This document shows positions 1 through 60,779 of a DNA stretch of 64,000 bases, piece after piece. The notes below the pieces were generated by a model. It was not told where the DNA came from and searched no databases. It saw only the letters and a list, made by a program, of their open reading frames with translations. Made by a program: the position numbers and the translations under genes. The stretch is taken from positions 413,510-477,509 of the forward strand of contig CP060218.1 of assembly GCA_023898345.1 (NCBI GenBank), read 5' to 3'. Numbering within the stretch: the first letter of the stretch is position 1; every line of letters begins with the position of its first letter. Source of the DNA: Candidatus Woesearchaeota archaeon (GTDB lineage: Archaea > Nanobdellota > Nanobdellia > Woesearchaeales > UBA583).

Positions 1-1316
1 ATACCTATTCGTTAAAACAAGGAATAGAGGATGGGTTTCTTGCTCCGTACAAAGTCGTTAGAATTACTTTTGACAAAGATATTGAATGGCGCCCTTATGC
101 TTCACAAACAGATAAATATGGCGAGATTATTCCGGACAAGGAGTATAGTGGCAGGGATTATGATAAAGAGATTGTCCTAGAAAAGAGGACAGAACTTGTT
201 GCTAAGAAAATTAGTTCTTACCTTAAACAGACAGATAGATTTGACAAGACCATTGTTTTTTGTAATGATATTGAACATGCTCAGAGAATGACTCTTGCTT
301 TAATGAATGAAAATAGTGATTTGGTTGCTAAAAATAGAAAGTATGTTATGCAAATTACAGGAGACAATAATGAGGGAAAAAAGGAACTTGATAACTTTAT
401 TGACCCTGAAAGCTCTTATCCTGTTATTGCTACAAGCTCAAAGCTTATGACAACAGGAGTTGATGCCCAAACCTGTAAACTTATTGTGCTTGATTCAAAT
501 ATTCAATCCATGACAGAGTTTAAGCAAATTATTGGAAGGGGGACGAGAATTAATGAGGATTTTGGAAAGTATTCTTTTACGATTCTTGATTTTAGGGGCG
601 TTACTCGTTTGTTTGCAGACCCAGACTTTGACGGAGAACCTATAAAAGTATGTGAAAATAGTGAGGATTCAGCTTTTGAGAAAGTAGAAGAAATCTTGGA
701 TGTGTACGGAGAAGAAAAGAAAGAGGGAGCAGCTTTTATCAAAAGAAAAGAGAAAATGAGGAAATATTATGTTCACTCTGTCCCTGTTGAAGTTTCTTCT
801 GAAAGAGTGCAATATTTTGGGAGTGATGGAAAACTCATTACTGAAAGTTTGAGAGATTATACTAAAAAAAATATTCGAAAGGAGTACAGAGACTTAGATG
901 ATTTTTTGAAGAAATGGCAAAGCGTGAAGAAGGCTGCAATAATAAAGGAACTTGAACAACAGGGAATTTTCTTTCATGAACTTGAGCGTGAAGTGGGTAA
1001 GGAGTTGGATCCTTTTGATTTAGTTTGTCATATTGCCTACGACCAAAAAGCATTGACGCGAAAGGAAAGGGCAAGTAATGTTAAGAAAAGAAATTACTTT
1101 GGAAAATACGGGGAAAAGGCGAGAAAGGTCATTGAAGTCTTATTGGATAAATATGCTGACACGGGGATTGAAAATATTGAAAGTTTGGATATACTAAAAG
1201 TCAAACCTCTTTCAGATATTGGCTCTCCTTTGGAGATTGTTAAATTATTTGGAGGGAAAAAAGCTTACTTGCAAGTTATTAATGAACTTGAAAAACACTT
1301 GTATAGTGAGGTATGA
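1..1316 (+). CDS. hsdR: Type I restriction enzyme R subunit (HsdR), C-terminal part; the gene runs off the left edge of the window
   Basis: The open frame reads from position 3 without a stop. The upstream translation ...TYSLKQGIEDGFLAPYKVVRITFD... is the classic HsdR helicase C-terminal motif. The listed ORF 288..1316 is the in-frame continuation. Stop TGA 1314-1316 overlaps the next ATG (ATGA). Confidence 0.85.
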   Translation, partial: TYSLKQGIEDGFLAPYKVVRITFDKDIEWRPYASQTDKYGEIIPDKEYSGRDYDKEIVLEKRTELVAKKISSYLKQTDRFDKTIVFCNDIEHAQRMTLALMNENSDLVAKNRKYVMQITGDNNEGKKELDNFIDPESSYPVIATSSKLMTTGVDAQTCKLIVLDSNIQSMTEFKQIIGRGTRINEDFGKYSFTILDFRGVTRLFADPDFDGEPIKVCENSEDSAFEKVEEILDVYGEEKKEGAAFIKRKEKMRKYYVHSVPVEVSSERVQYFGSDGKLITESLRDYTKKNIRKEYRDLDDFLKKWQSVKKAAIIKELEQQGIFFHELEREVGKELDPFDLVCHIAYDQKALTRKERASNVKKRNYFGKYGEKARKVIEVLLDKYADTGIENIESLDILKVKPLSDIGSPLEIVKLFGGKKAYLQVINELEKHLYSEV

Positions 1317-2680
1317 AGAGAATGAGTCTTACACTGAATGCACTGAAAAGAATTGCCAAAATTCATGAGGGTCAAACTTTGGAGTTTAAAGAGAATCTTT
1401 CTAAAGAAATAAAAAAGGAGATTTGTGCTTTTGCAAATTCTCAAGGTGGAAAGATTTATCTGGGAATAACAGACAGTGAAGAATTAAAATCTCAGAATAT
1501 AACAAATACATACCTTTCTCAATTAGACGATTTTATTTCTCAATTAACTCCTAAATTAGACTCTATTACATACGAAATCATTGAAAACAACTTTGTCGTT
1601 GTTGACGTTCCTGAGGGTGAGCTAAGAAATAAACCGTATTCTATTGACAATAAATTTTATATTCGAAAGGGCGCAAGTTCGCAAACATTAACAAGGGAAG
1701 AAATTAAATTTTACTTTCAGGAAGGGAGGGAATTAGCTTTTGATGAAAGAGTACATCAGAAGTTTAGCTTTGAAAAGGGCTTTGACACTCATGCGTATGA
1801 ACTTTTTTGCCAAAAATCCAGAATAGATGAGAAAGAGTTTGACAAAAAACAACTTTTAGAAAATTTAAAAATAACTCGTGATGGAAGGTTTACGAATGCA
1901 GGCGTTTTGTTATTTGCAAAGAATATCACGGATTTTTTTATTGATTTTCAAATTCGATGTGCCATTTTCAAAGGAAAAACAAAAGCCAATATTATTGATA
2001 GTAAGGAATTCAATTCAAATCTTATAGAAAATATTGAAGGGACCCTTATTTTTTTCAAAAGAAACTTGCGGAATAAATTTGTTATTGAAGGTTTGCAAAG
2101 GAGGGAAGAACTTGAGATTCCTGAAGAAGTGTTGCGAGAGGCTTTGTTAAATGCTATTTGTCATAGGGATTATAATATTATAAATGCCATTCATATTTAT
2201 GTGTTTGATGACAGAATTGAGATTGTAAGTCCCGGGGGATTAGTTAAGGAACTTAGTATAGAGAATATGAGGAGCAAGAGTATTTCAAGAAATCCCTTTC
2301 TTTTTTCTTTATTGAAAAGGGCAAATTATGTTGAGAAGTATGGTTCTGGAATTAACAGAATTGAAAAGCTATTAGAGGAGAGGGGATTAGAGAAAGCATC
2401 TTACGAGAATCTTCCTTTATTTTTTACGATTAGTTTTAAGAGAGAGCCATTAAATGAGCCATTAAATGAGCCATTAAATGAGCCATTAAATGAGCGCCAT
2501 AAAAAGATTCTGCGATTTGTTGAAAGAAAACCTAATGCCAAAAGAGAGGAACTTTATGACATTTCTGGCGTGTCTTTGGCAACTTTAAAAAGAGATATTG
2601 AATTCTTGATACATAAAAATCTTATTGAGAGAAGGGGCTCAAAGAAAACGGGAGGGTATTTTGTAAAGAATGACCATTAG
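1313..2680 (+). CDS. AlbA_2/AAA_4 (Schlafen-like) N-domain plus HATPase_c_4 C-domain protein (RecG-like putative regulator) with a C-terminal winged HTH
   Basis: The N-terminus (ALKRIAKIHEGQTLEFKENLS...CAFANSQGGKIYLGI) resembles the divergent AAA_4 domain. HRDYN...IEIVSPGGL resembles HATPase_c_4. Contains an (EPLN)x4 repeat. Translationally coupled to hsdR and hsdM. Confidence 0.6.
   Translation: MKRMSLTLNALKRIAKIHEGQTLEFKENLSKEIKKEICAFANSQGGKIYLGITDSEELKSQNITNTYLSQLDDFISQLTPKLDSITYEIIENNFVVVDVPEGELRNKPYSIDNKFYIRKGASSQTLTREEIKFYFQEGRELAFDERVHQKFSFEKGFDTHAYELFCQKSRIDEKEFDKKQLLENLKITRDGRFTNAGVLLFAKNITDFFIDFQIRCAIFKGKTKANIIDSKEFNSNLIENIEGTLIFFKRNLRNKFVIEGLQRREELEIPEEVLREALLNAICHRDYNIINAIHIYVFDDRIEIVSPGGLVKELSIENMRSKSISRNPFLFSLLKRANYVEKYGSGINRIEKLLEERGLEKASYENLPLFFTISFKREPLNEPLNEPLNEPLNERHKKILRFVERKPNAKREELYDISGVSLATLKRDIEFLIHKNLIERRGSKKTGGYFVKNDH
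2444..2491 (+). repeat. Perfect 12-bp tandem repeat GAGCCATTAAAT x4 (plus one degenerate unit), in frame, encoding EPLNEPLNEPLNEPLN
   Basis: Read directly in the sequence at 2444-2491; the following unit gagcgccataaa matches 9/12. Confidence 0.9.
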
Positions 2681-4091
2681 CACTACAAATATTAAGGGTA
2701 TTCAGGACATTATGCGTAAGGATGCAGGTGTTGATGGAGATGCACAAAGAATTTCACAATTGGTGTGGATGATATTTCTCAAGGTTTTTGATGATAAGGA
2801 ACAGGAATGGGAACTTGATGACACTTATACGTCGCCAATTCCTCAGAGACTGCGCTGGCGTAGCTGGGCATCTGATAAGGAGGGAATAACTGGTGATGAG
2901 CTTTTGGATTTTATTAACAATGACTTGTTCAAGACCTTAAAAGAGTTGCCAGTTTCTCATGAAGAGAGAAAAGCTGTCTTGGTTAAGGAAGTTTTTGAGG
3001 ATGCTTATAATTATATGAAATCCGGAACTTTGTTGAGGCAAATTGTGAATGAAATTAATAAGATTGATTTTACAAGTTCTGAGGATAGACATACTTTCAA
3101 TGATATTTACGAAACTATTTTGAAAGATTTGCAAAGTGCAGGAAATGCTGGAGAGTTCTATACTCCAAGAGCTGTTACTCAATTTATTGTTGACATGGTA
3201 AATCCTCTTCTTGGTGAAAGAGTTATGGATCCTGCTTGTGGGACTGGAGGATTTTTGATTTGTGCTTTGGAGCATTTGAGAAAGCAAGAGAAGTCTGTCG
3301 AAGATAGAAAAACATGGCAAAGTTCTCTTTTAGGCATTGAAAAGAAGCAACTTCCTCACATGCTTTGTACGACAAATATGATTTTGCATGATGTGGAAAT
3401 TCCTCGTATTAGGCACGACAATTCTTTGTCAAGACCGATGAGGAGTATTGGACAGTCTGAAAGAGTCGAGGTTGTTGTTATGAATCCTCCTTTTGGTGGT
3501 GTTGAGGAAGATGGTATCTTGGCAAATTTTCCTCTGGCATTGAGAACAAAGGAGACTGCAGACTTATTTCTTGTTCTTGTCATGCAAATCTTAAAGGATA
3601 GGGGAAGATGTGGTTTAGTTTTACCTGATGGTTTCTTATTTGGCGAGGGCGTTAAGACTCGAATAAAGGAGAAATTACTCGATGAGTTTAATTTGCATAC
3701 TATCGTCAGATTGCCCAATGGAGTATTTAATCCATATACTGGAATTACTACAAACTTATTGTTTTTTGAAAAAGGGACGCCAACAAAGGAGATTTGGTAT
3801 TTTGAGCATCCTTATCCTTCTGGTGTCAAGAGCTACAATAAGACTAGACCAATTACTATCAAAGAGTTTGATTTGGAGAAGAGTTGGTGGGCTAATCGCG
3901 TTGAGAATGAACACGCTTGGAAGGTTAGCATTGATGACATTAGAGCGCGTAATTATAACTTGGACATCAAAAATCCCACGAAAGCTGTTGAGGAAGTGCA
4001 ACTCAGTTCAAAGGAGTTGCTTGAACTGCTTGACAAAAGCATTGCTAAGAGCAAAGAAACTTTGGATAAGATTAAGGTGGAGTTGATGTGA
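2670..4091 (+). CDS. hsdM: Type I R-M N6-adenine DNA methyltransferase subunit (HsdM)
   Basis: HsdM N-domain, AdoMet motif DPACGTGGFL, catalytic NPPFG, and GEFYTPR. Stop TGA 4089-4091 is immediately followed by ATG 4092. Confidence 0.9.
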   Translation: MTISTTNIKGIQDIMRKDAGVDGDAQRISQLVWMIFLKVFDDKEQEWELDDTYTSPIPQRLRWRSWASDKEGITGDELLDFINNDLFKTLKELPVSHEERKAVLVKEVFEDAYNYMKSGTLLRQIVNEINKIDFTSSEDRHTFNDIYETILKDLQSAGNAGEFYTPRAVTQFIVDMVNPLLGERVMDPACGTGGFLICALEHLRKQEKSVEDRKTWQSSLLGIEKKQLPHMLCTTNMILHDVEIPRIRHDNSLSRPMRSIGQSERVEVVVMNPPFGGVEEDGILANFPLALRTKETADLFLVLVMQILKDRGRCGLVLPDGFLFGEGVKTRIKEKLLDEFNLHTIVRLPNGVFNPYTGITTNLLFFEKGTPTKEIWYFEHPYPSGVKSYNKTRPITIKEFDLEKSWWANRVENEHAWKVSIDDIRARNYNLDIKNPTKAVEEVQLSSKELLELLDKSIAKSKETLDKIKVELM

Positions 4092-4724
4092 ATGGGGAAT
4101 TCTAGATATATGTATGTTGATGAAAGTGGAGATTTGGGCTTTGGTAAAAAGGGGAGTTCTAGATATTTTGTCATTTCTGCGTTGCTTATTGATGATTGTA
4201 AAGAACCTGAAAGATTAGTAAAAAACATGCGTAGAAATAAGTTCAAAAAGGAATTAAGAAAATCAAATGAACTTAAAGCAAATAACTCATCAGATAAACT
4301 TAGACACTATGTTTTAAGTAAAATCAATGAGTTTAAAGGAATTCAGATCTTTCATATTGTTTTAGATAAAACTGAGGTTAGAAGTCCTTACTTGAAAGAT
4401 AATAAAAATAAGCTTTACAATTTTGTTGCTGGAAAACTTGCTAAAAACATTTTAATGAAAGATGCGGATTTACTTGTCATTATAGATAAATCCAAAGGGA
4501 AAAAGATTTTAAGAATAGATTTTGATAGATATTTTAGAACTAAATTACTTGAAGGAGAAACGGCCGGAGACTGTACAATTTCTCATGGTTACTCTCACAA
4601 TTTTGCGGGGTTACAAATGGTTGACTTTCTTGCATGGTCTGTTTTTAGAAAATATGAATATAAAGATTTAGACTTTAACAAGAATATAACTGTAGAACAA
4701 GAGGTGTTTTCCGTATGGTTTTAG
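4092..4724 (+). CDS. DUF3800-like protein (N-terminal YVDESGDLG motif)
   Basis: 210 aa; the N-terminal MYVDESGDLGF...RYFVISALLI fits the DUF3800 signature from memory. Lies between hsdM and hsdS. Confidence 0.5.
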   Translation: MGNSRYMYVDESGDLGFGKKGSSRYFVISALLIDDCKEPERLVKNMRRNKFKKELRKSNELKANNSSDKLRHYVLSKINEFKGIQIFHIVLDKTEVRSPYLKDNKNKLYNFVAGKLAKNILMKDADLLVIIDKSKGKKILRIDFDRYFRTKLLEGETAGDCTISHGYSHNFAGLQMVDFLAWSVFRKYEYKDLDFNKNITVEQEVFSVWF

Positions 4725-4987
4725 AACTAGACACAGTACCATTAAGCACTGAAGCGAACACCTCAAGGTATTCTGACTTAATGGTTTTACCTGATAAGAA
4801 TGGTAGTAAAAGGTTATATAAAAACGTTTTTATTTCCTCCTTAGTGAGGTCTTGGGAGAAAATGGGCAGTAAAATCAAAATTATTGCACAGAAATTCTTA
4901 GAAGATTCAGGAAGTTCTATTAAGAAGATGTACACTACTCAAGGCAACATCAAAGAATTATTAAAGAAAGTAAAAGGTGAATTTTAA
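4715..4987 (+). CDS. Small hypothetical protein (90 aa), Lys-rich
   Basis: ORF overlaps the DUF3800 stop and the KAP start by about 10 nt each, which is operon-like coupling. No recognisable domain. Confidence 0.25.
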   Translation: MVLELDTVPLSTEANTSRYSDLMVLPDKNGSKRLYKNVFISSLVRSWEKMGSKIKIIAQKFLEDSGSSIKKMYTTQGNIKELLKKVKGEF

Positions 4988-6233
4988 AATGATAACAAAA
5001 ATTCCAAAGACAAAAGACGTGTTAGAAAATTTCACATTTGAAAAAAATGATAAATTACAGAGGGAAACAATTGCAAATAATTTCAATAGGTGTTTTGAGG
5101 GAACTGAAGGAAATTTAATTTTAGCGATTAACGGAGAGTGGGGACAAGGGAAAAGCGCATTTTTGCATATGTGGAAAAACCAGTTACGCTTTAAGGAAAA
5201 GGAAGTTATTTATCTTAATTTATGGGAAGAAGATTTTTATAAAGAACCTTTTTTATCTATTCTTAATACCTTTAGTAACAATTTTTTTGATATTAAAAAA
5301 GATTTAATAAGTATTAGTAAAAAAATACTTAAACATATCTTAGAAAAAAAAACAGGTCTTAATATAGATGAATTTTTCGACAAATCTGTTTATGATGAAA
5401 TAAATAATGATAAGATAAAATTAAAAGAGATACTTAGAAAAAAAATTGGAGAGAGAACAGATAACTTTCCACTAGTTGTTATGATTGATGAATTAGATAG
5501 ATGCAATCCGTTATATGCAATAGAATTCTTAGAGGTTATCAAACATTTTTTTGATATAGATAAAATCGTCTTTGTACTTGCATTGGATATTCAAGAATTA
5601 GAACATTCAATTAAGAAAGTGTATGGTGAGAATCTAAATACACAGAGATATCTTAGAAAAATTATTGATGTTATTTATGATTTACCAAATCCCTCTCTTG
5701 AACTTTATTTTGACCATATCTTACAAAAATATGGGGATAAATATACTGACTTGTCAGAAAATGGAAATGTTTTTCGTTGTTGTATTTTGAAAAATGCTAA
5801 AAATTTAAGAGATATAGAAAAATTTTTCATAAGATATAATTTATCGTTCAAGGAAAAAAAAAATCAAAGATTACAAAGCCTAAGTTTTAATGAAAATCAG
5901 AAGTATTTCATTAGAACTTATTTATTACTGTTAACTCAATTAAATAAGGAACTTTACTCTGAGATAAGAGAAAAATCACTTACAAAAGAGAAAATCAAGC
6001 TATTTTTTGAATTTTTGGGAATTGAAAAAAAAAATGTTCCAGGAGATTTTATTAGAGCAATTTTTGAATTACTTACTTGGGGAAAAACTCCCTCTCTTTC
6101 TAATCAGACTATAAAGGGGGAAATAGAGACATTAGGATATAATACTTCTTATATTGGTGAAACTATAGGCGGAATCTCCTATGATCCAAAAACTGATTTT
6201 TTACTAATTGATTTTTTGCAAGAAATTGACTAA
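4977..6233 (+). CDS. KAP family P-loop NTPase
   Basis: Walker A is GEWGQGKSAF (the GxWGxGKS KAP signature); Walker B is VVMIDELDRC. Contains three poly(A)9-10 tracts. Confidence 0.75.
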   Translation: MNFKMITKIPKTKDVLENFTFEKNDKLQRETIANNFNRCFEGTEGNLILAINGEWGQGKSAFLHMWKNQLRFKEKEVIYLNLWEEDFYKEPFLSILNTFSNNFFDIKKDLISISKKILKHILEKKTGLNIDEFFDKSVYDEINNDKIKLKEILRKKIGERTDNFPLVVMIDELDRCNPLYAIEFLEVIKHFFDIDKIVFVLALDIQELEHSIKKVYGENLNTQRYLRKIIDVIYDLPNPSLELYFDHILQKYGDKYTDLSENGNVFRCCILKNAKNLRDIEKFFIRYNLSFKEKKNQRLQSLSFNENQKYFIRTYLLLLTQLNKELYSEIREKSLTKEKIKLFFEFLGIEKKNVPGDFIRAIFELLTWGKTPSLSNQTIKGEIETLGYNTSYIGETIGGISYDPKTDFLLIDFLQEID

Positions 6234-6234
6234 A

Positions 6235-7572
6235 ATGGTTTGGAATAAAGTTAAAATTAGTACTTTTCTAAAGGAAAGAAATAACAGATTTAAGCCAGAG
6301 GATGCTAATAAATTAGGATTAAAAAGAATTGAAAAAATAGATTTTTCTGGAAATCTCTATATTGTTGAAAAACAAACAAATACGGGAATGATCCTAGTTA
6401 GAAGTGGGGATTTGGTGATCTCAGGGATTAATGTGGAAAAAGGAGCATTAGCAGTTTATGGTGGTCAGGAAGATGTTTTAGCAACTATACATTATTCTTC
6501 ATATGAATATGATAAAAATAAAATTGACATAGAATATCTAAAGTGGTTTCTTAAAAGTAATGTTTTTAGAAGTATTTTATTAGAAGAAGTAGGGGGAGGA
6601 ATTAAAACTGAATTAAAACCTAAAAGATTTTTATCTCTTGAAGTTTACTTGCCTGACTTACAAACTCAGATTGAAATGAGAAACAAGATACTAGCTGTAG
6701 AACAAGAAATAGGAGAACTTCAAATTCGTATAAAACAAGAAGAAGATTATCTTACTAAACTAAAAGAAGCAATTTTACAAGAAGCAGTACAAGGGAAATT
6801 AGTAGAACAAAATTCTAATGATGAACCTGCGCAGATATTACTTGAAAAAATTAGAACAGAAAAAGAACAATTAATCAAAGAAAAAAAATTTCAAAAACCT
6901 AAAGAAAAAGGAATAATCTTAGAAAATGAATTTAATCTTGAAATTCCAAAGACTTGGACTTTAGCAAAGTTAGTAGATTTATGTTTTGTCACAAAATTAG
7001 CAGGTTTTGAATATACTAAATATGTTAATTTGAAAGATGTTGGTGAAGTTCCAGTTATTAGAGCTCAAAATGTTAAAAAAAGATATATTGATAAAACTAA
7101 TTTGAAATATATTGATTTGAAAACTTCTGAATTGTTACATAGATGTGCTTTAACAAAAGAATCATTATTAGTTACTTTCATTGGAGCAGGAATTGGGGAT
7201 GTTGCTTTATTTAATGAAGATAAAAGATGGCACCTTGCTCCAAATGTTGCTAAGTTAGAACCATTCAATAATTTTGAATTAAAAATATTGCCTGACTATT
7301 TATTATATTATTTATTATCTGAAACTGGAAATAAAGAAATATTTAAATCATCAAAATCAACAGCACAGCCAAGTTTATCAATGGGTACAATTAGGAATAT
7401 TATTATTCCACTTCCGCCATTGGCAGAACAGCAGCGTATTGTCAGGAAAGTTGAGGAACTTATGGCCTATTGTGATGTACTTGAGCAAGAAATACGCAAG
7501 TCCAAACAACAAGCAGAACAATTAATGCAATCAGTGTTGAAGGAAGCATTTGAACAAAAGAAAGGGCTATAA
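6235..7572 (+). CDS. hsdS: Type I R-M specificity subunit (HsdS) with two target-recognition domains and a central coiled coil
   Basis: Has the typical HsdS architecture and the conserved C-terminal LPPLAEQQRIV...L motif. Start taken at ATG 6235, just after the KAP stop 6231-6233. The ORF track begins at 6208 in frame. Confidence 0.8.
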   Translation: MVWNKVKISTFLKERNNRFKPEDANKLGLKRIEKIDFSGNLYIVEKQTNTGMILVRSGDLVISGINVEKGALAVYGGQEDVLATIHYSSYEYDKNKIDIEYLKWFLKSNVFRSILLEEVGGGIKTELKPKRFLSLEVYLPDLQTQIEMRNKILAVEQEIGELQIRIKQEEDYLTKLKEAILQEAVQGKLVEQNSNDEPAQILLEKIRTEKEQLIKEKKFQKPKEKGIILENEFNLEIPKTWTLAKLVDLCFVTKLAGFEYTKYVNLKDVGEVPVIRAQNVKKRYIDKTNLKYIDLKTSELLHRCALTKESLLVTFIGAGIGDVALFNEDKRWHLAPNVAKLEPFNNFELKILPDYLLYYLLSETGNKEIFKSSKSTAQPSLSMGTIRNIIIPLPPLAEQQRIVRKVEELMAYCDVLEQEIRKSKQQAEQLMQSVLKEAFEQKKGL

Positions 7573-7944: not shown

Positions 7945-8607
7945 ATGGCATTAAAACAGAAAAGAACGTTGGAGTTGTTCAAACACAGGTTCGGATTTGA
8001 ATGGTTAGCCTTTTTTTTTCTTATCTTGCAGTTTTTTGTTCTTTTGGGAAACTTGCCTTCTCCAAGGTATGATGTTTTTTTCTGGTTCTGCAATCATACT
8101 CCTCTTATCTTTGCTCTTGCTTTTGCTTTTCGTAAAATTAATCTTATCAAGGGACTTATTTGTGTGGGGTTTCTTCCTCAATTTATTTGGACTCTTGACT
8201 TTCTTTTACGACTTTTTTTTGACTATAATTTTTTTAGAATAACTGCGTATGTCTTTGAAAACTCACTAGGGTATTGGGTTTTGCTTCCTATTGGCATTCA
8301 CATGTTTTCAACAAATCTTGCTCTTCTTGCAACATACAAGTTTCCGACAGAGAATAAAGTTTTGACGAAAGCTGCTTTGTACATTGCTCTTTTGTATGTA
8401 ACGACTATTATTCTTACGCTTCCTGAACGTAATGTTAATTGGCTTCAAGGGATTGGAAAAGAGGGTTTTCTCATAAGTTTTACAGGTTATCAACTTGTCT
8501 GGCCTTTCTTTGTTTTCTTTGTCCTTGTGCTTCCAACATATTTTTTTCAGAAATATTTGTATGAACATTATGAACAGAACAAGCTAAAAAAAAGAACAAA
8601 AAACTAA
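7945..8607 (+). CDS. Polytopic membrane protein, function unknown
   Basis: 220 aa with multiple hydrophobic segments. First gene inside repeat copy A. Confidence 0.5.
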   Translation: MALKQKRTLELFKHRFGFEWLAFFFLILQFFVLLGNLPSPRYDVFFWFCNHTPLIFALAFAFRKINLIKGLICVGFLPQFIWTLDFLLRLFFDYNFFRITAYVFENSLGYWVLLPIGIHMFSTNLALLATYKFPTENKVLTKAALYIALLYVTTIILTLPERNVNWLQGIGKEGFLISFTGYQLVWPFFVFFVLVLPTYFFQKYLYEHYEQNKLKKRTKN

Positions 8608-8608
8608 G

Positions 8609-8983
8609 TTGAAAATAACTAAAAAAATTATGAATTGTTTCTTTACTCCTATCGGCACGTTCTTAAACAAGTTCTTCTTTTCTATTTTCATGGAAAAGGA
8701 TTCTCTTCTTTCTACGTATTATGATTTGGAACTTGATAAACTTGTTGAAGAAGTAAATGCAAAGAATTTTTCAAAAGTCGTTCTTCAATTTCCTGATGGC
8801 TTGAAGTATTATGCAAGAGAAGTTTTAGATGTTTTGGAAGCGCGTACAAAGGCTCAGTTCTTTGTTTACTTTGGTACTTGTTTTGGCGCTTGTGATGTTC
8901 CTCTTCACCTTAAGGAACTTGATTTTGATCTTTGTGTGCAGTGGGGTCATAGTGTGTATGTGAAGACAAAGGGAATGTGGTAG
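8609..8983 (+). CDS. dph2: Diphthamide synthase Dph2, N-terminal domain fragment (domain 1). The real start is probably the internal Met near 8690.
   Basis: VVLQFPDGLKYYAREV...FGACDV...LCVQWGHSVY aligns with the archaeal Dph2 N-terminus, up to the HLGHSYM region. Confidence 0.6.
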   Translation: MKITKKIMNCFFTPIGTFLNKFFFSIFMEKDSLLSTYYDLELDKLVEEVNAKNFSKVVLQFPDGLKYYAREVLDVLEARTKAQFFVYFGTCFGACDVPLHLKELDFDLCVQWGHSVYVKTKGMW

Positions 8984-9007
8984 CTTTTTTATGTAAAAGC
9001 TTTCTCA

Positions 9008-9622
9008 TTAATTAATGCCTAATAATAGTAAATTTAATCCAAAGGTAATTATTTCGGTGATTACATTTGTAATGAATGCCCAAAGCATGACAACTCCTAT
9101 TAGTTGCCAATTTCCTGTATTGAATTCTCTTTTGAATAAATAGAGTGATGTATTGATTTCTTTAAGGCCATAATAAATCATTGGGAGGAAAAGTAGGTAT
9201 GCGAGTGATGCATAGGTTGTTGAAACGAAACTTAGTGCCATTGCTAAAAGACTAATTCCTGCATAGGCTGTCAATAATGGTAAGTATAGATAAATCAAAA
9301 CGGTATAAAATTCAGTTACGGATAGGGTGGTTTTGAAAAACAATTTTGTGAAATAATATCCTCCAAATAAGAACAGGATGCCTAGTATTATATTTGGAAT
9401 AAGGAGAATTAAAAAGGTTAGTAATATGTTTAAACTCTTTTCAGTTGGAACAAGGTTATATAAGGTTACATATGAGGAAATTGATAGAACCAAGGTTAAA
9501 AAGAGATGTAAAAAAAGCATGGGGACCCATTCAAGTTTACTTAATTTTTCTTCAAATTTAGTAACTTGTTCGTCTGTCATTTTCCATTTGTATAAAGTTA
9601 TGGAGTCGAATAAATTAACCAT
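9008..9622 (-). CDS. Membrane protein (204 aa) encoded on the opposite strand between the two dph2 pieces
   Basis: Highly hydrophobic multi-TM ORF. Confidence 0.45.
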   Translation of the reverse strand: MVNLFDSITLYKWKMTDEQVTKFEEKLSKLEWVPMLFLHLFLTLVLSISSYVTLYNLVPTEKSLNILLTFLILLIPNIILGILFLFGGYYFTKLFFKTTLSVTEFYTVLIYLYLPLLTAYAGISLLAMALSFVSTTYASLAYLLFLPMIYYGLKEINTSLYLFKREFNTGNWQLIGVVMLWAFITNVITEIITFGLNLLLLGIN

Positions 9623-9689
9623 TGTAGGGAGTTTAGCAATTTATCTTTTGAAATAAATTCTGTGCTCTTTTTGAGTAGTTAGGAAGGCA

Positions 9690-10487
9690 TTGAATAGTGG
9701 TGTGGTTTACGTGTGTGTCTCTCTTTTTATCGTACAAGTTTATAAGTTTTTTGAGCTTTCCTTTTTTATGAACTTGCGTTTTCTCAAAGCTTCTATTGAA
9801 ATTGATTTTCAAATTCCCGTCGATTTTACGGACTTACTCAAAACTACTTTTGAAAAAGGAAACACAAAAAATCTGGCTTTGTTCAGCGCTGTGCAGTTTA
9901 GGAAGCATCACGATGAAGTTTCTGGAATCTTAAAGGAACACGGTTTTACTTCGCAAACTTCACAACCTTTTCGGACAAGTATTGAGGGGCAACTTTTGGG
10001 TTGTGATTCTCATAAGGCTGCTTTGAAAATGGATTTAAGCGAGATTGATGGCTTTGTGTATATTGGTGATGGCTACTTTCATCCTCAGGCACTTCTTCTT
10101 GCTCAGGAATTCGAGGATGAGATTAAACCTGTTCTTATTCTTAATCCTGTTCAAAATATGTGTGAGATTCTCTCTCGTGAACATATTGAAAAATATCTTT
10201 CGAAAAAGAAAGCAACTTTGGCGGCTTTTCATTTAGCAGACCAGGTTGGTGTTTTTGTAACGACGAAATGGGGTCAGGAATATCTGCAATCTGCACTTAA
10301 GCTCAAAGAAATGTATCCTCAAAAGACTTTTTCTTATTTTGTTGGAGACAATTTTCTTGATGCTGAACAAGAGAACTTTCCCTTTGTCCAGTGCTGGGTC
10401 AATACTGCCTGTCCGCGAATTGGGCAAGATGATATTTTACGGCACAAAAAGCCGACGGTGAACCTACGTGATGTTTGGCTGGAGTGA
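9690..10487 (+). CDS. dph2: Dph2 C-terminal fragment (domains 2-3). The real start is probably an internal Met near 9768.
   Basis: QLLGCDSH, FVYIGDGYFHP and WVNTACPRIGQDD correspond to Dph2 domains 2 and 3 with their cluster cysteines. Confidence 0.6.
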   Translation: MNSGVVYVCVSLFIVQVYKFFELSFFMNLRFLKASIEIDFQIPVDFTDLLKTTFEKGNTKNLALFSAVQFRKHHDEVSGILKEHGFTSQTSQPFRTSIEGQLLGCDSHKAALKMDLSEIDGFVYIGDGYFHPQALLLAQEFEDEIKPVLILNPVQNMCEILSREHIEKYLSKKKATLAAFHLADQVGVFVTTKWGQEYLQSALKLKEMYPQKTFSYFVGDNFLDAEQENFPFVQCWVNTACPRIGQDDILRHKKPTVNLRDVWLE

Positions 10488-10538
10488 AGTTTTTGGAGCA
10501 TAGCTTTTTTAAAGGCATCTCTAATTGCACTCTTTGGA

Positions 10539-28119: not shown

Positions 28120-28193
28120 GGCCCTGTAGCTTAACCTGGATAGAGTAGCGGGTTTCGGCCCCGCTGGTGGGGGTTCAAATCCCTCCAGGGTCT
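28120..28193 (+). tRNA. tRNA-Arg (anticodon TCG)
   Basis: Hand-folded cloverleaf. Acceptor stem GGCCCTG/CAGGGTC; D stem GCTT/GAGT; anticodon stem GCGGG/CCCGC with loop TTTCGGC; T stem GGGGG/CCCTC with loop TTCAAAT. No encoded CCA. Confidence 0.8.
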
Positions 28194-60571: not shown

Positions 60572-60647
60572 TTTTTTTAAGATGTTCAATTATTAACTAA
60601 TAATCTGTCTTCTATCTGATTTTTGTTTTTTAGAATAACACAAAGAT

Positions 60648-60779
60648 GAAGGTCACCAGAGATTTCCCGTTGGATAACAGTAATGACTCGGCTAGCTAGG
60701 CTTAACTTCTGTGTTCGAGATGGGAACAGGTGTAACCCGTAGTTATATGAACCTTCTATCTTAGTTAACGCTGACCGGT
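60648..60779 (-). rRNA. 5S ribosomal RNA; ends approximate (about 110-130 nt)
   Basis: The minus strand reads ...GUUCCCAUCUCGAACACAGAAGUUAAGCCUAGCUAGCC..., matching the universal 5S loop C/helix III consensus CCCAUCCCGAACxxGAAGUUAAGC. Terminal helix candidates are GAAGGU/ACCUUC or GGUCAGCG/UGGUGACC. Confidence 0.7.

What the first reader, a model, noticed from the sequence alone, without database searches (positions are those of the whole stretch)
1..7572. Type I R-M operon with three foreign genes between hsdR, hsdM and hsdS: a candidate R-M-coupled defence module
Seen in sequence: seven same-strand ORFs are packed with overlapping or abutting start/stop codons (ATGA at 1313-1316, TGA-ATG at 4089-4094, overlaps at 4715-4724 and 4977-4987, stop-ATG at 6231-6237). 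They are therefore almost certainly one transcript. The order is hsdR, then AAA_4/HATPase_c_4 protein, hsdM, DUF3800-like protein, a small ORF, KAP P-loop NTPase, and hsdS. Established knowledge: Type I hsd loci are known landing pads for abortive-infection genes, such as the PrrC and RloC anticodon nucleases, whose activity is gated by the R-M complex. KAP NTPases are enriched in defence islands. Inference: the DUF3800-like plus KAP NTPase pair sits between M and S and would be stoichiometrically co-expressed with the methylase. It could be a new R-M-gated second-line (abortive infection or NTPase-effector) system. The AAA_4/HATPase_c_4 protein may be its sensor or regulator.
Basis: partly seen in the sequence, partly recalled or inferred. 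Interest (0 to 1): 0.75.

Follow-up and report, generated by a model that had tools for sequence, protein, structure and literature searches.

The report
Restriction operon with independent inserts, hidden RNA
An archaeal type I restriction-modification operon carries three unrelated inserted modules rather than one new paired system, and the "small ORF" is really an unannotated antisense small-RNA gene that almost always accompanies the DUF3800 nuclease gene.

Summary
The gene layout is real. hsdR (type IB, EcoAI family), a Schlafen/AlbA_2-HATPase_c_4-HTH protein, hsdM, DUF3800, a KAP NTPase and hsdS all lie on one strand, and every Pfam assignment is confirmed.

The proposed DUF3800-KAP system is not supported:
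- KAP was a neighbour in 0 of 80 DUF3800 loci.
- DUF3800 was a neighbour in 0 of 81 KAP loci.
- Each family sits directly next to type I R-M genes on its own, in about 10-16% of loci.

The 90-aa "small ORF" is an artefact. It overlies a 68-nt structured RNA gene on the opposite strand (4731-4798), which has its own archaeal TATA box. This RNA follows the DUF3800 stop codon in 78 of 80 loci. The fold is 94.8% paired, and 14 of 22 pairs show compensatory changes. No Rfam family matches it, but it shares its core layout with DUF3800-X.

DUF3800 models as an RNase HII-like nuclease. The KAP protein belongs to PADLOC candidate family PDC-S20 and resembles RADAR RdrA. It has no recognisable effector domain and repeatedly sits immediately upstream of hsdS.

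Verdict: a mosaic of independent embedded modules, which is a known phenomenon. The RNA is a new variant of the DUF3800-associated RNAs.

The parts
1..1316 (+). C-terminal 437 codons of hsdR, a type IB (EcoAI-family) restriction subunit. The window start cuts it; it is 777 aa in the related contig L001.
   Evidence: NCBIfam NF046051 scores 600 bits against a cut-off of 550. Pfam finds EcoEI_R_C and Helicase_C. PADLOC finds REase_I at 2.9e-178. The full gene appears in L001.
1313..2680 (+). Insert 1: a SLFN_AlbA_2 + HATPase_c_4 + winged-HTH protein of 455 aa (452 aa from the second ATG). It carries a 4x PLNE linker repeat.
   Evidence: Pfam gives 70.3, 78.3 and 21 bits. Homologues occur mostly outside R-M loci. 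The same gene lies directly upstream of hsdM in L089.
2670..4091 (+). hsdM, the type I N6-adenine methyltransferase.
   Evidence: Pfam N6_Mtase scores 247 bits, plus HsdM_N. PADLOC MTase_I scores 2.1e-215.
4092..4724 (+). Insert 2a: a DUF3800 protein of 210 aa, an RNase HII-like nuclease with D10, E11, D132 and Q175xxD178 intact.
4731..4798 (-). Insert 2b: a 68-nt structured small-RNA gene, convergent with DUF3800. Its three-stem fold is P1, a GUAAAA loop, P2, then a P3 hairpin with a UUGA loop.
   Evidence: Covariance model R1 scores 73 bits (E 3e-17) and this is the only hit in the 64-kb window. The same element occurs in 78/80 DUF3800 loci, always on the minus strand just after the stop codon. 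The fold is 94.8% paired, 14/22 pairs show double changes, and 0/500 shuffles reach the observed score. There are 143 G.U cells against 12 A.C cells, which assigns the strand. The MFE z-score is -2.85 on the minus strand and -1.57 on the plus strand.
4814..4836 (-). Predicted archaeal promoter of the RNA gene: TATA box TTTTTATATAA (4814-4824) preceded by an A-rich BRE-like stretch (4825-4836).
   Evidence: The position-specific conservation of an A-run followed by TTTAWAWA, 19-35 nt upstream of the RNA, holds across 72 loci. A T-rich run follows the RNA 3' end. Promoter function is inferred, not measured.
4715..4987 (+). It is most likely not a gene: it is an open frame lying over the antisense RNA gene, that gene's promoter and the spacer before KAP.
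   Evidence: It has no family hits. A search of 1.84e9 representative proteins finds only translations of the RNA-gene part. The nucleotide element is conserved in L008 and L017, where no such ORF exists. The frame is absent from the closest KAP locus, L087.
4989..6233 (+). Insert 3: a soluble KAP-family P-loop NTPase of 414 aa (418 aa from the GTG at 4977), belonging to PADLOC candidate family PDC-S20.
6235..7572 (+). hsdS, the type I specificity subunit (445 aa, two target-recognition domains).
   Evidence: Pfam Methylase_S scores 75.8 bits. PADLOC Specificity_I scores 8.7e-69. NCBIfam PRK09737 covers residues 35-440.

Best explanation
The locus is an intact type IB (EcoAI-family) hsdR-hsdM-hsdS operon in a Candidatus Woesearchaeota (DPANN archaeon) genome. 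It lies between the RNA-polymerase genes and housekeeping genes (diphthamide synthase and pyruvate kinase in the related contig). It has collected three separate accessory modules that move independently of each other.

(1) Between R and M lies an AlbA_2/Schlafen-HATPase_c_4-wHTH protein. This is a widespread stand-alone gene.

(2) After hsdM lies a two-part module. It consists of a DUF3800 RNase HII-like nuclease and a dedicated, convergently transcribed 68-nt structured RNA with its own TATA promoter. Because the RNA's own fold is under selection, shown by covariation in all three stems, I infer that it acts as a folded RNA bound by or acting on the nuclease, as a regulator, inhibitor or cofactor. 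I do not think it acts only as an antisense transcript.

(3) Immediately upstream of hsdS lies a soluble KAP ATPase of the PDC-S20 candidate family. It is RdrA/Cdc6/BrxC-like and has no recognisable effector domain.

Shown here: gene identities, folds, the RNA structure, and the independence of the modules.

Inferred: the modules are second-line defence or addiction cargo that profits from co-expression and co-transfer with R-M ('guilt by embedding'). They are not parts of one machine.
For: Identities. Organism and flanks.

Independence of the modules:
- KAP is absent from 80 DUF3800 loci, which share no recurrent protein neighbour. The largest neighbour cluster, 9 loci, is an N6 methyltransferase.
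- DUF3800 is absent from 81 KAP loci.
- Related hsd operons carry different cargo in the M-S gap: L017 has DUF3800+RNA, L087 and L093 have KAP, and L068 has none.
- G+C differs gene by gene: hsdM 0.383, DUF3800 0.297, KAP 0.260.

Enrichment next to R-M genes: adjacent in 8/80 and 13/81 loci, within three genes in 16/80 and 17/81.

The RNA:
- Nucleotide conservation across loci.
- Covariation.
- Model hits, including 13 loci that were not in the seed alignment.
- Strand assignment.
- Promoter and terminator profile.
- A second, diverged DUF3800 gene in L021 carries Rfam DUF3800-X in the same place and orientation.

Folds.

Literature:
- RNAs associated with DUF3800, function unknown: PMC5737381.
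- DUF3800 as an RNase H fold in retron type VII and in CRISPR V-A2 and VI-F loci: PMC7736814, PMC10910872, PMC12669027.
- Embedded genes are frequent in type I R-M systems: bioRxiv 10.1101/2024.01.29.577857, PMC11411939.
Against: - The tight overlaps and abutting junctions would also fit a co-adapted unit.
- KAP lies immediately upstream of hsdS, with a gap of 1 nt or less or an overlap, in five loci of 33-56% identity: the window, L087, L093, L112 and L089. That hints at more than co-location.
- No expression, activity or phage data exist for any of the inserts.
- My neighbour surveys use crude ORF calls. The iterated HsdR profile may also catch other helicases.
- Nearly all surveyed sequences are metagenome-assembled.
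- The RNA's role is pure inference.
Confidence: 0.68

Rival explanations
1. DUF3800 and the KAP NTPase, with the AlbA_2/HATPase_c_4 protein as sensor, form one new abortive-infection system whose activity is gated by the type I R-M complex, as in PrrC/EcoprrI.
For: The genes share a strand and have abutting junctions. Each family is enriched next to type I R-M genes. KAP matches a defence candidate family.
Against: DUF3800 and KAP were never neighbours in 80 + 81 loci. Related operons carry one without the other. Four of four further AlbA_2 homologue contexts lack R-M genes. A convergent RNA gene with its own promoter separates DUF3800 from KAP. No HEPN or anticodon-nuclease domain is present.
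Confidence: 0.04
2. The KAP ATPase alone is a functional accessory of the type I R-M enzyme. It would be an effector-less RdrA/BrxC-like ATPase that works through HsdS/M/R, for example by sensing anti-restriction or modulating the complex. On this view it is not autonomous cargo.
For: KAP lies immediately upstream of hsdS, overlapping or 1 nt apart, in the window, L087, L093, L112 and L089 despite 33-56% identity. An R-M subunit is adjacent in 13/81 loci, always in tight same-strand arrays. No effector domain is present, and the C-terminus is all-helical. Structural neighbours include BREX BrxC, which works with a methyltransferase. KAP and hsdS share low G+C.
Against: About 80% of homologues have no R-M gene within three genes. 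PADLOC lists the family as a single-gene candidate (PDC-S). KAP's position within R-M operons varies: before S, after S, or after R.
Confidence: 0.2
3. The DUF3800 + RNA module is not a defence or addiction module. It would instead be a selfish mobile cassette or an RNA-processing function, and its presence in the hsd operon would be incidental.
For: Genomic contexts are extremely variable, with no conserved protein partner and many housekeeping neighbours. The protein is 45-67% identical across distant archaeal phyla, which suggests horizontal spread. A truncated copy that still carries its RNA occurs in L022. Weinberg et al. could propose no function (PMC5737381).
Against: R-M, toxin-antitoxin and Abi genes are over-represented among neighbours. 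DUF3800 domains are recruited to retrons and CRISPR-Cas loci (PMC7736814, PMC10910872, PMC12669027). No transposase or integrase is consistently adjacent; integrases appear in 2 of 145 upstream neighbours. I did not search for terminal repeats.
Confidence: 0.2
4. The 90-aa ORF (4715-4987) is a genuine small protein, possibly a regulator.
For: The frame is open, its start and stop overlap the neighbouring genes, and a public gene caller called it in L001-L006. The L007 counterpart (149 aa) has a C-terminal wHTH.
Against: Only residues 1-51 find any match among 1.84e9 proteins, and that part is the reverse complement of the RNA gene and its promoter. The wHTH of L007 has no counterpart in the window ORF. 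The element is conserved at nucleotide level where the frame is closed, in L008 and L017.
Confidence: 0.05

Closest known systems
DUF3800-associated RNA motifs (DUF3800-I to -XI, Weinberg et al. 2017, PMC5737381), especially Rfam RF02984 DUF3800-X
   Same: It is a conserved structured RNA physically tied to a DUF3800 gene. In L021, DUF3800-X sits at the stop codon of a DUF3800 gene on the opposite strand, exactly as here. The core layout is also shared: P1, then GUAAnn, then a P2 that starts with CC, then AGU before the 3' strand of P2, which ends in GG, then the return strand of P1.
   Different: No Rfam model, DUF3800-X included, matches this element at E<=10 in the window or E<=1 in 13 loci. 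The apical part differs: here it is a 7-bp hairpin, GUGUACC-UUGA-GGUGCAC. This class goes with a distinct, mostly archaeal DUF3800 subfamily. I could not check the published motifs that are absent from Rfam.
PADLOC candidate system PDC-S20 (single-gene KAP NTPase); related defence KAP-like ATPases QatA and PifA
   Same: There is a strong profile match to PDC-S20 (228 bits, E 5e-68) and weaker matches to QatA and PifA. The neighbours are typical of defence islands: R-M, GmrSD and AAA_15.
   Different: PDC-S20 is only a computational candidate. The QatA equivalog score is far below its cut-off (60 against 600), and no QatBCD genes are present.
RdrA of the RADAR defence system (PDB 8fnt, 8fnu)
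   Different: The window protein is half the size (414 aa against about 790). No RdrB adenosine deaminase gene is adjacent. No sequence-level match to any PDB chain was found.
PrrC/EcoprrI and RloC (anticodon nucleases embedded in type I R-M); TgvAB in Vibrio cholerae T1RM (PMC11411939); 'guilt by embedding' (Payne et al. 2024, bioRxiv 10.1101/2024.01.29.577857)
   Same: Foreign genes lie inside a type I hsd operon on the same strand. Each inserted family recurs in this position in other genomes.
   Different: No HEPN/anticodon-nuclease or GmrSD domains are present. Embedding is facultative, with 10-16% of loci adjacent to R-M genes, whereas PrrC is almost exclusively embedded. Gating by R-M is untested.
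Retron type VII (RT plus DUF3800) and TPR-DUF3800 accessories of Cas12a2/Cas12a3 and type VI-F CRISPR loci (PMC7736814, PMC10910872, PMC12669027)
   Same: The nuclease domain is the same RNase H2-like fold with an N-terminal DE motif, and it is paired with a dedicated non-coding RNA locus.
   Different: No reverse transcriptase, Cas gene or CRISPR array lies next to the gene. This subfamily keeps the QxxD motif that the retron-associated proteins lack (PMC7736814).
Type III toxin-antitoxin systems (ToxIN-like), given as the working analogy for an RNA-controlled nuclease
   Same: A nuclease gene is tightly linked to a small structured RNA with its own expression signals. It is mobile, patchy in distribution and found in defence contexts.
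   Different: The RNA is single-copy, not a tandem array. It is convergent and downstream, not upstream on the same strand. The nuclease fold is RNase H-like.

Membership tests
Type I restriction-modification system (type IB, EcoAI family) | Separate HsdR (helicase-nuclease), HsdM (N6-adenine methyltransferase) and HsdS (two-TRD specificity) genes in one locus | tested here: met
   NF046051 scores 600 bits against a cut-off of 550 on the partial HsdR. N6_Mtase + HsdM_N and Methylase_S are found. The full 777-aa HsdR is present in L001.
Type I restriction-modification system (type IB, EcoAI family) | Restriction and methylation activity at a bipartite target | not testable with these tools
   This needs methylome data or enzyme assays.
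DUF3800 (PF12686) | Profile match above the gathering score, with an N-terminal DE motif and a C-terminal QxxD motif | tested here: met
   The score is 72.6 bits against 21. D10, E11, D132, Q175 and D178 are invariant in 27 homologues.
DUF3800 (PF12686) | RNase H (type 2)-like fold | tested here: met
DUF3800-associated RNA motifs (Weinberg 2017) | A conserved, covarying RNA structure consistently adjacent to DUF3800 genes | tested here: met
   It occurs in 78/80 loci. The fold is 94.8% paired, 14/22 pairs have double changes, and 0/500 shuffles reach the score.
DUF3800-associated RNA motifs (Weinberg 2017) | Match to one of the described motif models (Rfam covariance models, e.g. RF02969, RF02968, RF02984) | tested here: not met
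   No DUF3800 family hit appears at E<=10 in window 4000-5100, nor for this element in 13 loci. Published motifs that are not in Rfam could not be checked.
KAP family P-loop NTPase (PF07693) | Profile match above the gathering score with intact Walker A and Walker B motifs | tested here: met
   The score is 108 bits against 20. GxGK and DELDRC are invariant in 34 homologues.
KAP family P-loop NTPase (PF07693) | Transmembrane helices inserted in the NTPase domain (from my own knowledge, typical of many KAP members and not universal) | tested here: not met
   The highest 19-residue Kyte-Doolittle mean is 1.42, and the insert is highly charged.
PADLOC PDC-S20 candidate defence system | Match to the PDC-S20 profiles | tested here: met
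   PDLC04959 scores 5.3e-68 (228.6 bits) over profile positions 14-373 of 464. The three other PDC-S20 models also match.
PADLOC PDC-S20 candidate defence system | Protection against viruses | not testable with these tools
   No paper in the library mentions PDC-S20.
PrrC/RloC-type R-M-gated abortive infection | ABC-type ATPase fused to a HEPN anticodon-nuclease domain | tested here: not met
   No such domains occur in any of the inserted proteins.
PrrC/RloC-type R-M-gated abortive infection | Near-exclusive embedding in type I R-M operons | tested here: not met
   An R-M gene is adjacent in 8/80 DUF3800 loci and 13/81 KAP loci.
RADAR (RdrA/RdrB) | RdrA ATPase encoded next to an RdrB adenosine deaminase | tested here: not met
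   The similarity is in fold only. The neighbours are the DUF3800/RNA module and hsdS.
Retron type VII | A reverse transcriptase gene and msr/msd RNA adjacent to or fused with DUF3800 | tested here: not met
   No RT domain occurs in window 1-7572. None appears in the top-25 family lists of the 281 neighbours scanned.
Type III toxin-antitoxin | A tandem array of antitoxin RNA repeats upstream of the toxin on the same strand | tested here: not met
   A single RNA copy lies downstream on the opposite strand.

The most novel reading that the evidence does not exclude
DUF3800 and its convergent small RNA form a self-contained two-component ribonucleoprotein system that is widespread in archaea. In it, an RNase HII-like nuclease is held in check, targeted or activated by its cognate folded RNA, acting as an RNA-controlled toxin or anti-viral effector. 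Type I R-M operons would be one of its preferred homes. In parallel, the effector-less KAP ATPase placed just before hsdS would be a true accessory of the type I enzyme, analogous to BrxC in BREX.
Probability: 0.25. Interest if true: 0.75.

Novelty: new variant of a known kind. Interest (0 to 1): 0.45.

Why it matters
The function of DUF3800 proteins and their many unrelated-looking partner RNAs has been an open puzzle since 2017. The same nuclease domain has since turned up in retrons and in Cas12a2/a3 and type VI-F CRISPR loci.

This archaeal class offers an unusually clean system for experiments:
- The protein is a 210-aa RNase HII-like enzyme with an intact active site.
- The RNA is 68 nt with a well-supported fold and a known strand.
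- The RNA has a predicted TATA promoter and an oligo-U terminator.
- Gene and RNA co-occur almost without exception (78/80 loci).

The result also corrects public annotation, where the RNA gene is called as a 90-aa hypothetical protein. It further shows that tight gene packing inside an R-M operon is not evidence of a single system.

The recurrent KAP-hsdS junction is a concrete, testable lead on whether some embedded ATPases work through the R-M enzyme.

Tried and rejected
- **DUF3800-KAP as a conserved pair:** rejected. Neither was a neighbour of the other in the two surveys.
- **AlbA_2/HATPase_c_4 protein as an R-M-specific regulator:** rejected as a general rule. Four further homologue contexts lack R-M genes. 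L089 does repeat the gene-hsdM junction.
- **The RNA on the plus strand (a 3'-UTR element of DUF3800):** rejected. Of 65 sequences, 60 have a U.G pair in P3 that would be A.C on the plus strand. Overall there are 143 G.U cells against 12 A.C cells. The BRE-TATA order and the T-run also fit the minus strand.
- **The RNA as a known Rfam family:** no hit.
- **tRNA fragment or attachment site:** ARAGORN and Rfam find only tRNA-Arg at 28120.
- **A viral origin for this DUF3800 subfamily:** only four distant relatives (22-27% identity) in 2.9 million viral contigs.
- **A sequence relative of the KAP protein with a solved structure:** none found.
- **Literature on PDC-S20:** none found.
- **Makarova et al. 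2011, defence islands:** I tried PMC3194920 from memory, but no paper is held under that id.
- **Supplement of Weinberg 2017, which lists the taxa of each motif:** not held.
- **Bacterial promoter/terminator scanner:** not used, because the organism is an archaeon.

Full report
**Observation.** An 11-nt overlap at 2670-2680 was not listed. Every domain assignment holds against Pfam's curated cut-offs:
- EcoEI_R_C plus Helicase_C for the truncated first ORF.
- SLFN_AlbA_2 + HATPase_c_4 + HTH for 1313-2680.
- N6_Mtase + HsdM_N for 2670-4091.
- DUF3800 (72.6 bits against 21) for 4092-4724.
- KAP_NTPase (108 bits against 20) for 4977/4989-6233.
- Methylase_S for 6235-7572.

NCBIfam places the R subunit in the EcoAI (type IB) family, at 600 bits against a cut-off of 550. 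The 90-aa ORF at 4715-4987 has no hit in Pfam, NCBIfam or PADLOC.

**Source and setting.** The DUF3800 protein is identical to one from a Candidatus Woesearchaeota archaeon. The same operon occurs on contig DAVJ01000070 and on five metagenome contigs. There hsdR is a full 777 aa. The operon lies directly after the RNA-polymerase subunit genes and before diphthamide synthase and pyruvate kinase. It is therefore an insertion among core genes.

**The 'small ORF' is an RNA gene on the other strand.** I aligned the DNA after the DUF3800 stop codon from the window and three homologous loci. About 65 nt are conserved at nucleotide level even though the proteins are only 52-67% identical, and in two of those loci no ORF covers the stretch. 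Across 80 loci taken from species-representative genomes, the element is present almost everywhere.

- **Strand.** The central hairpin has a C.A mismatch on the + strand. On the minus strand it is a perfect 7-bp stem with a U.G wobble.
- **Covariation.** On a 66-sequence minus-strand alignment, a three-stem structure is 94.8% paired. Fourteen of 22 pairs show compensatory double changes (241 cells). None of 500 column shuffles reaches the observed covariation score. Sliding the 3' partners drops pairing to 26-54%. RNAalifold independently recovers the three stems. There are 143 G.U cells against 12 A.C cells, which assigns the strand.
- **Model search.** A covariance model built from the alignment finds exactly one hit in the 64-kb window, at 4731-4798 on the minus strand (73 bits, E 3e-17). 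In 956 kb of related loci it finds 79 hits in 78 of 80 loci. All lie on the minus strand just beyond the DUF3800 stop. Thirteen of those loci were not in the seed alignment.
- **An extra copy.** The one additional hit, in L022, sits next to a truncated DUF3800 remnant.
- **Expression signals.** A T-rich run follows the 3' end. These are the expected archaeal promoter and terminator signals; this reading is inference from established promoter architecture. In the window the TATA box is TTTTTATATAA at 4814-4824.
- **Single-sequence folding.** The window copy folds at -18.3 kcal/mol (z -2.85) on the minus strand, against -13.0 (z -1.57) on the plus strand.
- **The ORF itself.** A search of the 90-aa ORF against 1.84 billion representative proteins returns four hits. 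The two real ones cover only residues 1-37 and 6-51, which is the translated RNA gene and promoter.

I conclude that the fifth 'gene' is an annotation artefact. The operon is interrupted by a convergent small-RNA gene.

**Relation to known RNAs.** Weinberg et al. (PMC5737381) described eleven structurally unrelated RNA motifs next to DUF3800 genes and could offer no hypothesis for their function. No Rfam 15 family matches the present element, either at E<=10 in the window or at E<=1 in 13 loci. In L021, however, a second and more divergent DUF3800 gene carries Rfam DUF3800-X (58.8 bits) at its stop codon on the opposite strand. Comparing the consensus sequences shows a shared core. It runs P1, GUAAnn, CC opening P2, then AGU before the 3' strand of P2, which ends in GG, then the return strand of P1. 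The apical parts differ. I therefore treat this RNA as a new variant within the DUF3800-associated RNAs. One caveat applies: I could not inspect the published motifs that are absent from Rfam.

**Is there a DUF3800-KAP system? No.**
- *DUF3800 loci.* In 80 loci, nearly all archaeal (DPANN lineages, Methanosarcinales, Thermoplasmata, Methanobacteriota), no KAP gene was found. Clustering of 404 neighbours gives one recurrent family, an N6 methyltransferase, in 9 loci. Pfam scans of 281 neighbours show a scatter of R-M, toxin-antitoxin, Abi and housekeeping genes.
- *KAP loci.* In 81 loci from metagenomes, the commonest immediate neighbours are Methylase_S (7), HsdR domains (5), N6_Mtase (4), GmrSD_N (3) and AAA_15 (3). 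DUF3800 does not appear among them.
- *R-M proximity.* With iterated profiles, type I R-M-like genes are adjacent in 8/80 DUF3800 loci and 13/81 KAP loci. They lie within three genes in 16/80 and 17/81. That is far above what three hsd genes per genome would give by chance. The HsdR profile may be somewhat permissive.
- *Related operons.* Related hsd operons show modular cargo. L017 has M-x-x-DUF3800+RNA-S, L087 and L093 have M-KAP-S, and L068 has R-M-S with DUF3800 outside.
- *Composition.* G+C differs gene by gene: hsdM 0.383, DUF3800 0.297, KAP 0.260, hsdS 0.288.
- *The AlbA_2 protein.* The AlbA_2/HATPase_c_4 protein has hundreds of homologues at 35-53% identity. Four further contexts contain no R-M genes. 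L089 repeats the junction between this gene and hsdM.

**Folds.**

**How it most likely works.**
- *Shown:* an intact type IB R-M operon, three inserts of independent distribution, and DUF3800's near-obligate linkage to a folded antisense-encoded RNA.
- *Inferred:* each insert is cargo of the defence-island kind. Such cargo gains from being carried and expressed with R-M, the 'guilt by embedding' pattern. Payne et al. report that type I R-M systems frequently contain embedded genes (bioRxiv 10.1101/2024.01.29.577857), and TgvAB is an experimental example (PMC11411939).
- *The DUF3800 module:* selection on the RNA's own fold argues for a protein-RNA partnership, with the RNA acting as regulator, inhibitor or cofactor of the nuclease. 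The convergent arrangement also permits antisense pairing with a read-through mRNA, but I rank that second.
- *KAP:* the repeated placement immediately upstream of hsdS in five loci of 33-56% identity, together with the lack of an effector, keeps open a real functional tie to the R-M enzyme. I give that 0.2.

**Verdict.** The locus is a mosaic of known or candidate module types inside an R-M operon, which is a documented phenomenon. The unexpected element is the unannotated small-RNA gene. It extends the DUF3800-RNA puzzle to a large archaeal class, with a defined strand, a well-supported fold and predicted promoter and terminator signals.

**Limits.**
- There are no expression or functional data.
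- Most loci are metagenome-assembled.
- Neighbour surveys rest on simple ORF calling.
- The number of loci is modest.

Noticed in passing
window 2447-2494: The AlbA_2/HATPase_c_4 protein carries a perfect 4x PLNE tandem repeat (residues 379-394) between the HATPase_c_4 domain and the C-terminal HTH. It is probably a flexible linker.
   Followed up: no
L021 628-2708: One Woesearchaeota contig carries two divergent DUF3800 genes between an hsdM fragment and hsdS. Each has its own class of convergent RNA at its stop codon: the new class at 1258-1326, and Rfam DUF3800-X at 2638-2708. This suggests that RNA class tracks protein subfamily.
   Followed up: partly
L073 8612-8718, L076 8607-8709, L079 6243-6345, L068 ~8604-8757, L039 1278-1381: Some copies of the RNA carry an extra insertion of about 35-55 nt between P3 and the 3' strand of P2. 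It looks like an additional hairpin. These copies score low with the model, or are missed altogether in the case of L039.
   Followed up: no
L022 5916-6097: A second copy of the RNA (77 bits) lies next to a remnant of only the last ~35 codons of a DUF3800 gene. This suggests decay of a duplicated module with the RNA retained.
   Followed up: partly
L089 2706-15370: A bacterial or archaeal metagenome contig has a type I R-M locus with ten inserted genes. KAP overlaps the start of hsdS, and an AlbA_2/HATPase_c_4/HTH gene overlaps the start of hsdM. These are the same two junctions as in the window, but the gene order is R...KAP-S...AlbA_2-M.
   Followed up: partly
window 4092-7572: G+C drops from 0.35-0.38 in hsdR and hsdM to 0.26-0.30 across DUF3800, KAP and hsdS, against a window mean of 0.36. 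The 68-nt RNA stands out at 0.40.
   Followed up: partly
L001 14400-15735 (downstream of the operon; corresponds to window ~8600-10500): In the related contig the diphthamide synthase gene is called as two separate ORFs (117 and 239 aa) about 260 nt apart. The spacing downstream of hsdS also differs between that contig and the window by about 139 nt.
   Followed up: no
window 28120-28193 and 60645-60758: tRNA-Arg(TCG) on the + strand and a 5S rRNA gene on the - strand are the only Rfam gathering-level hits in the 64-kb window.
   Followed up: no
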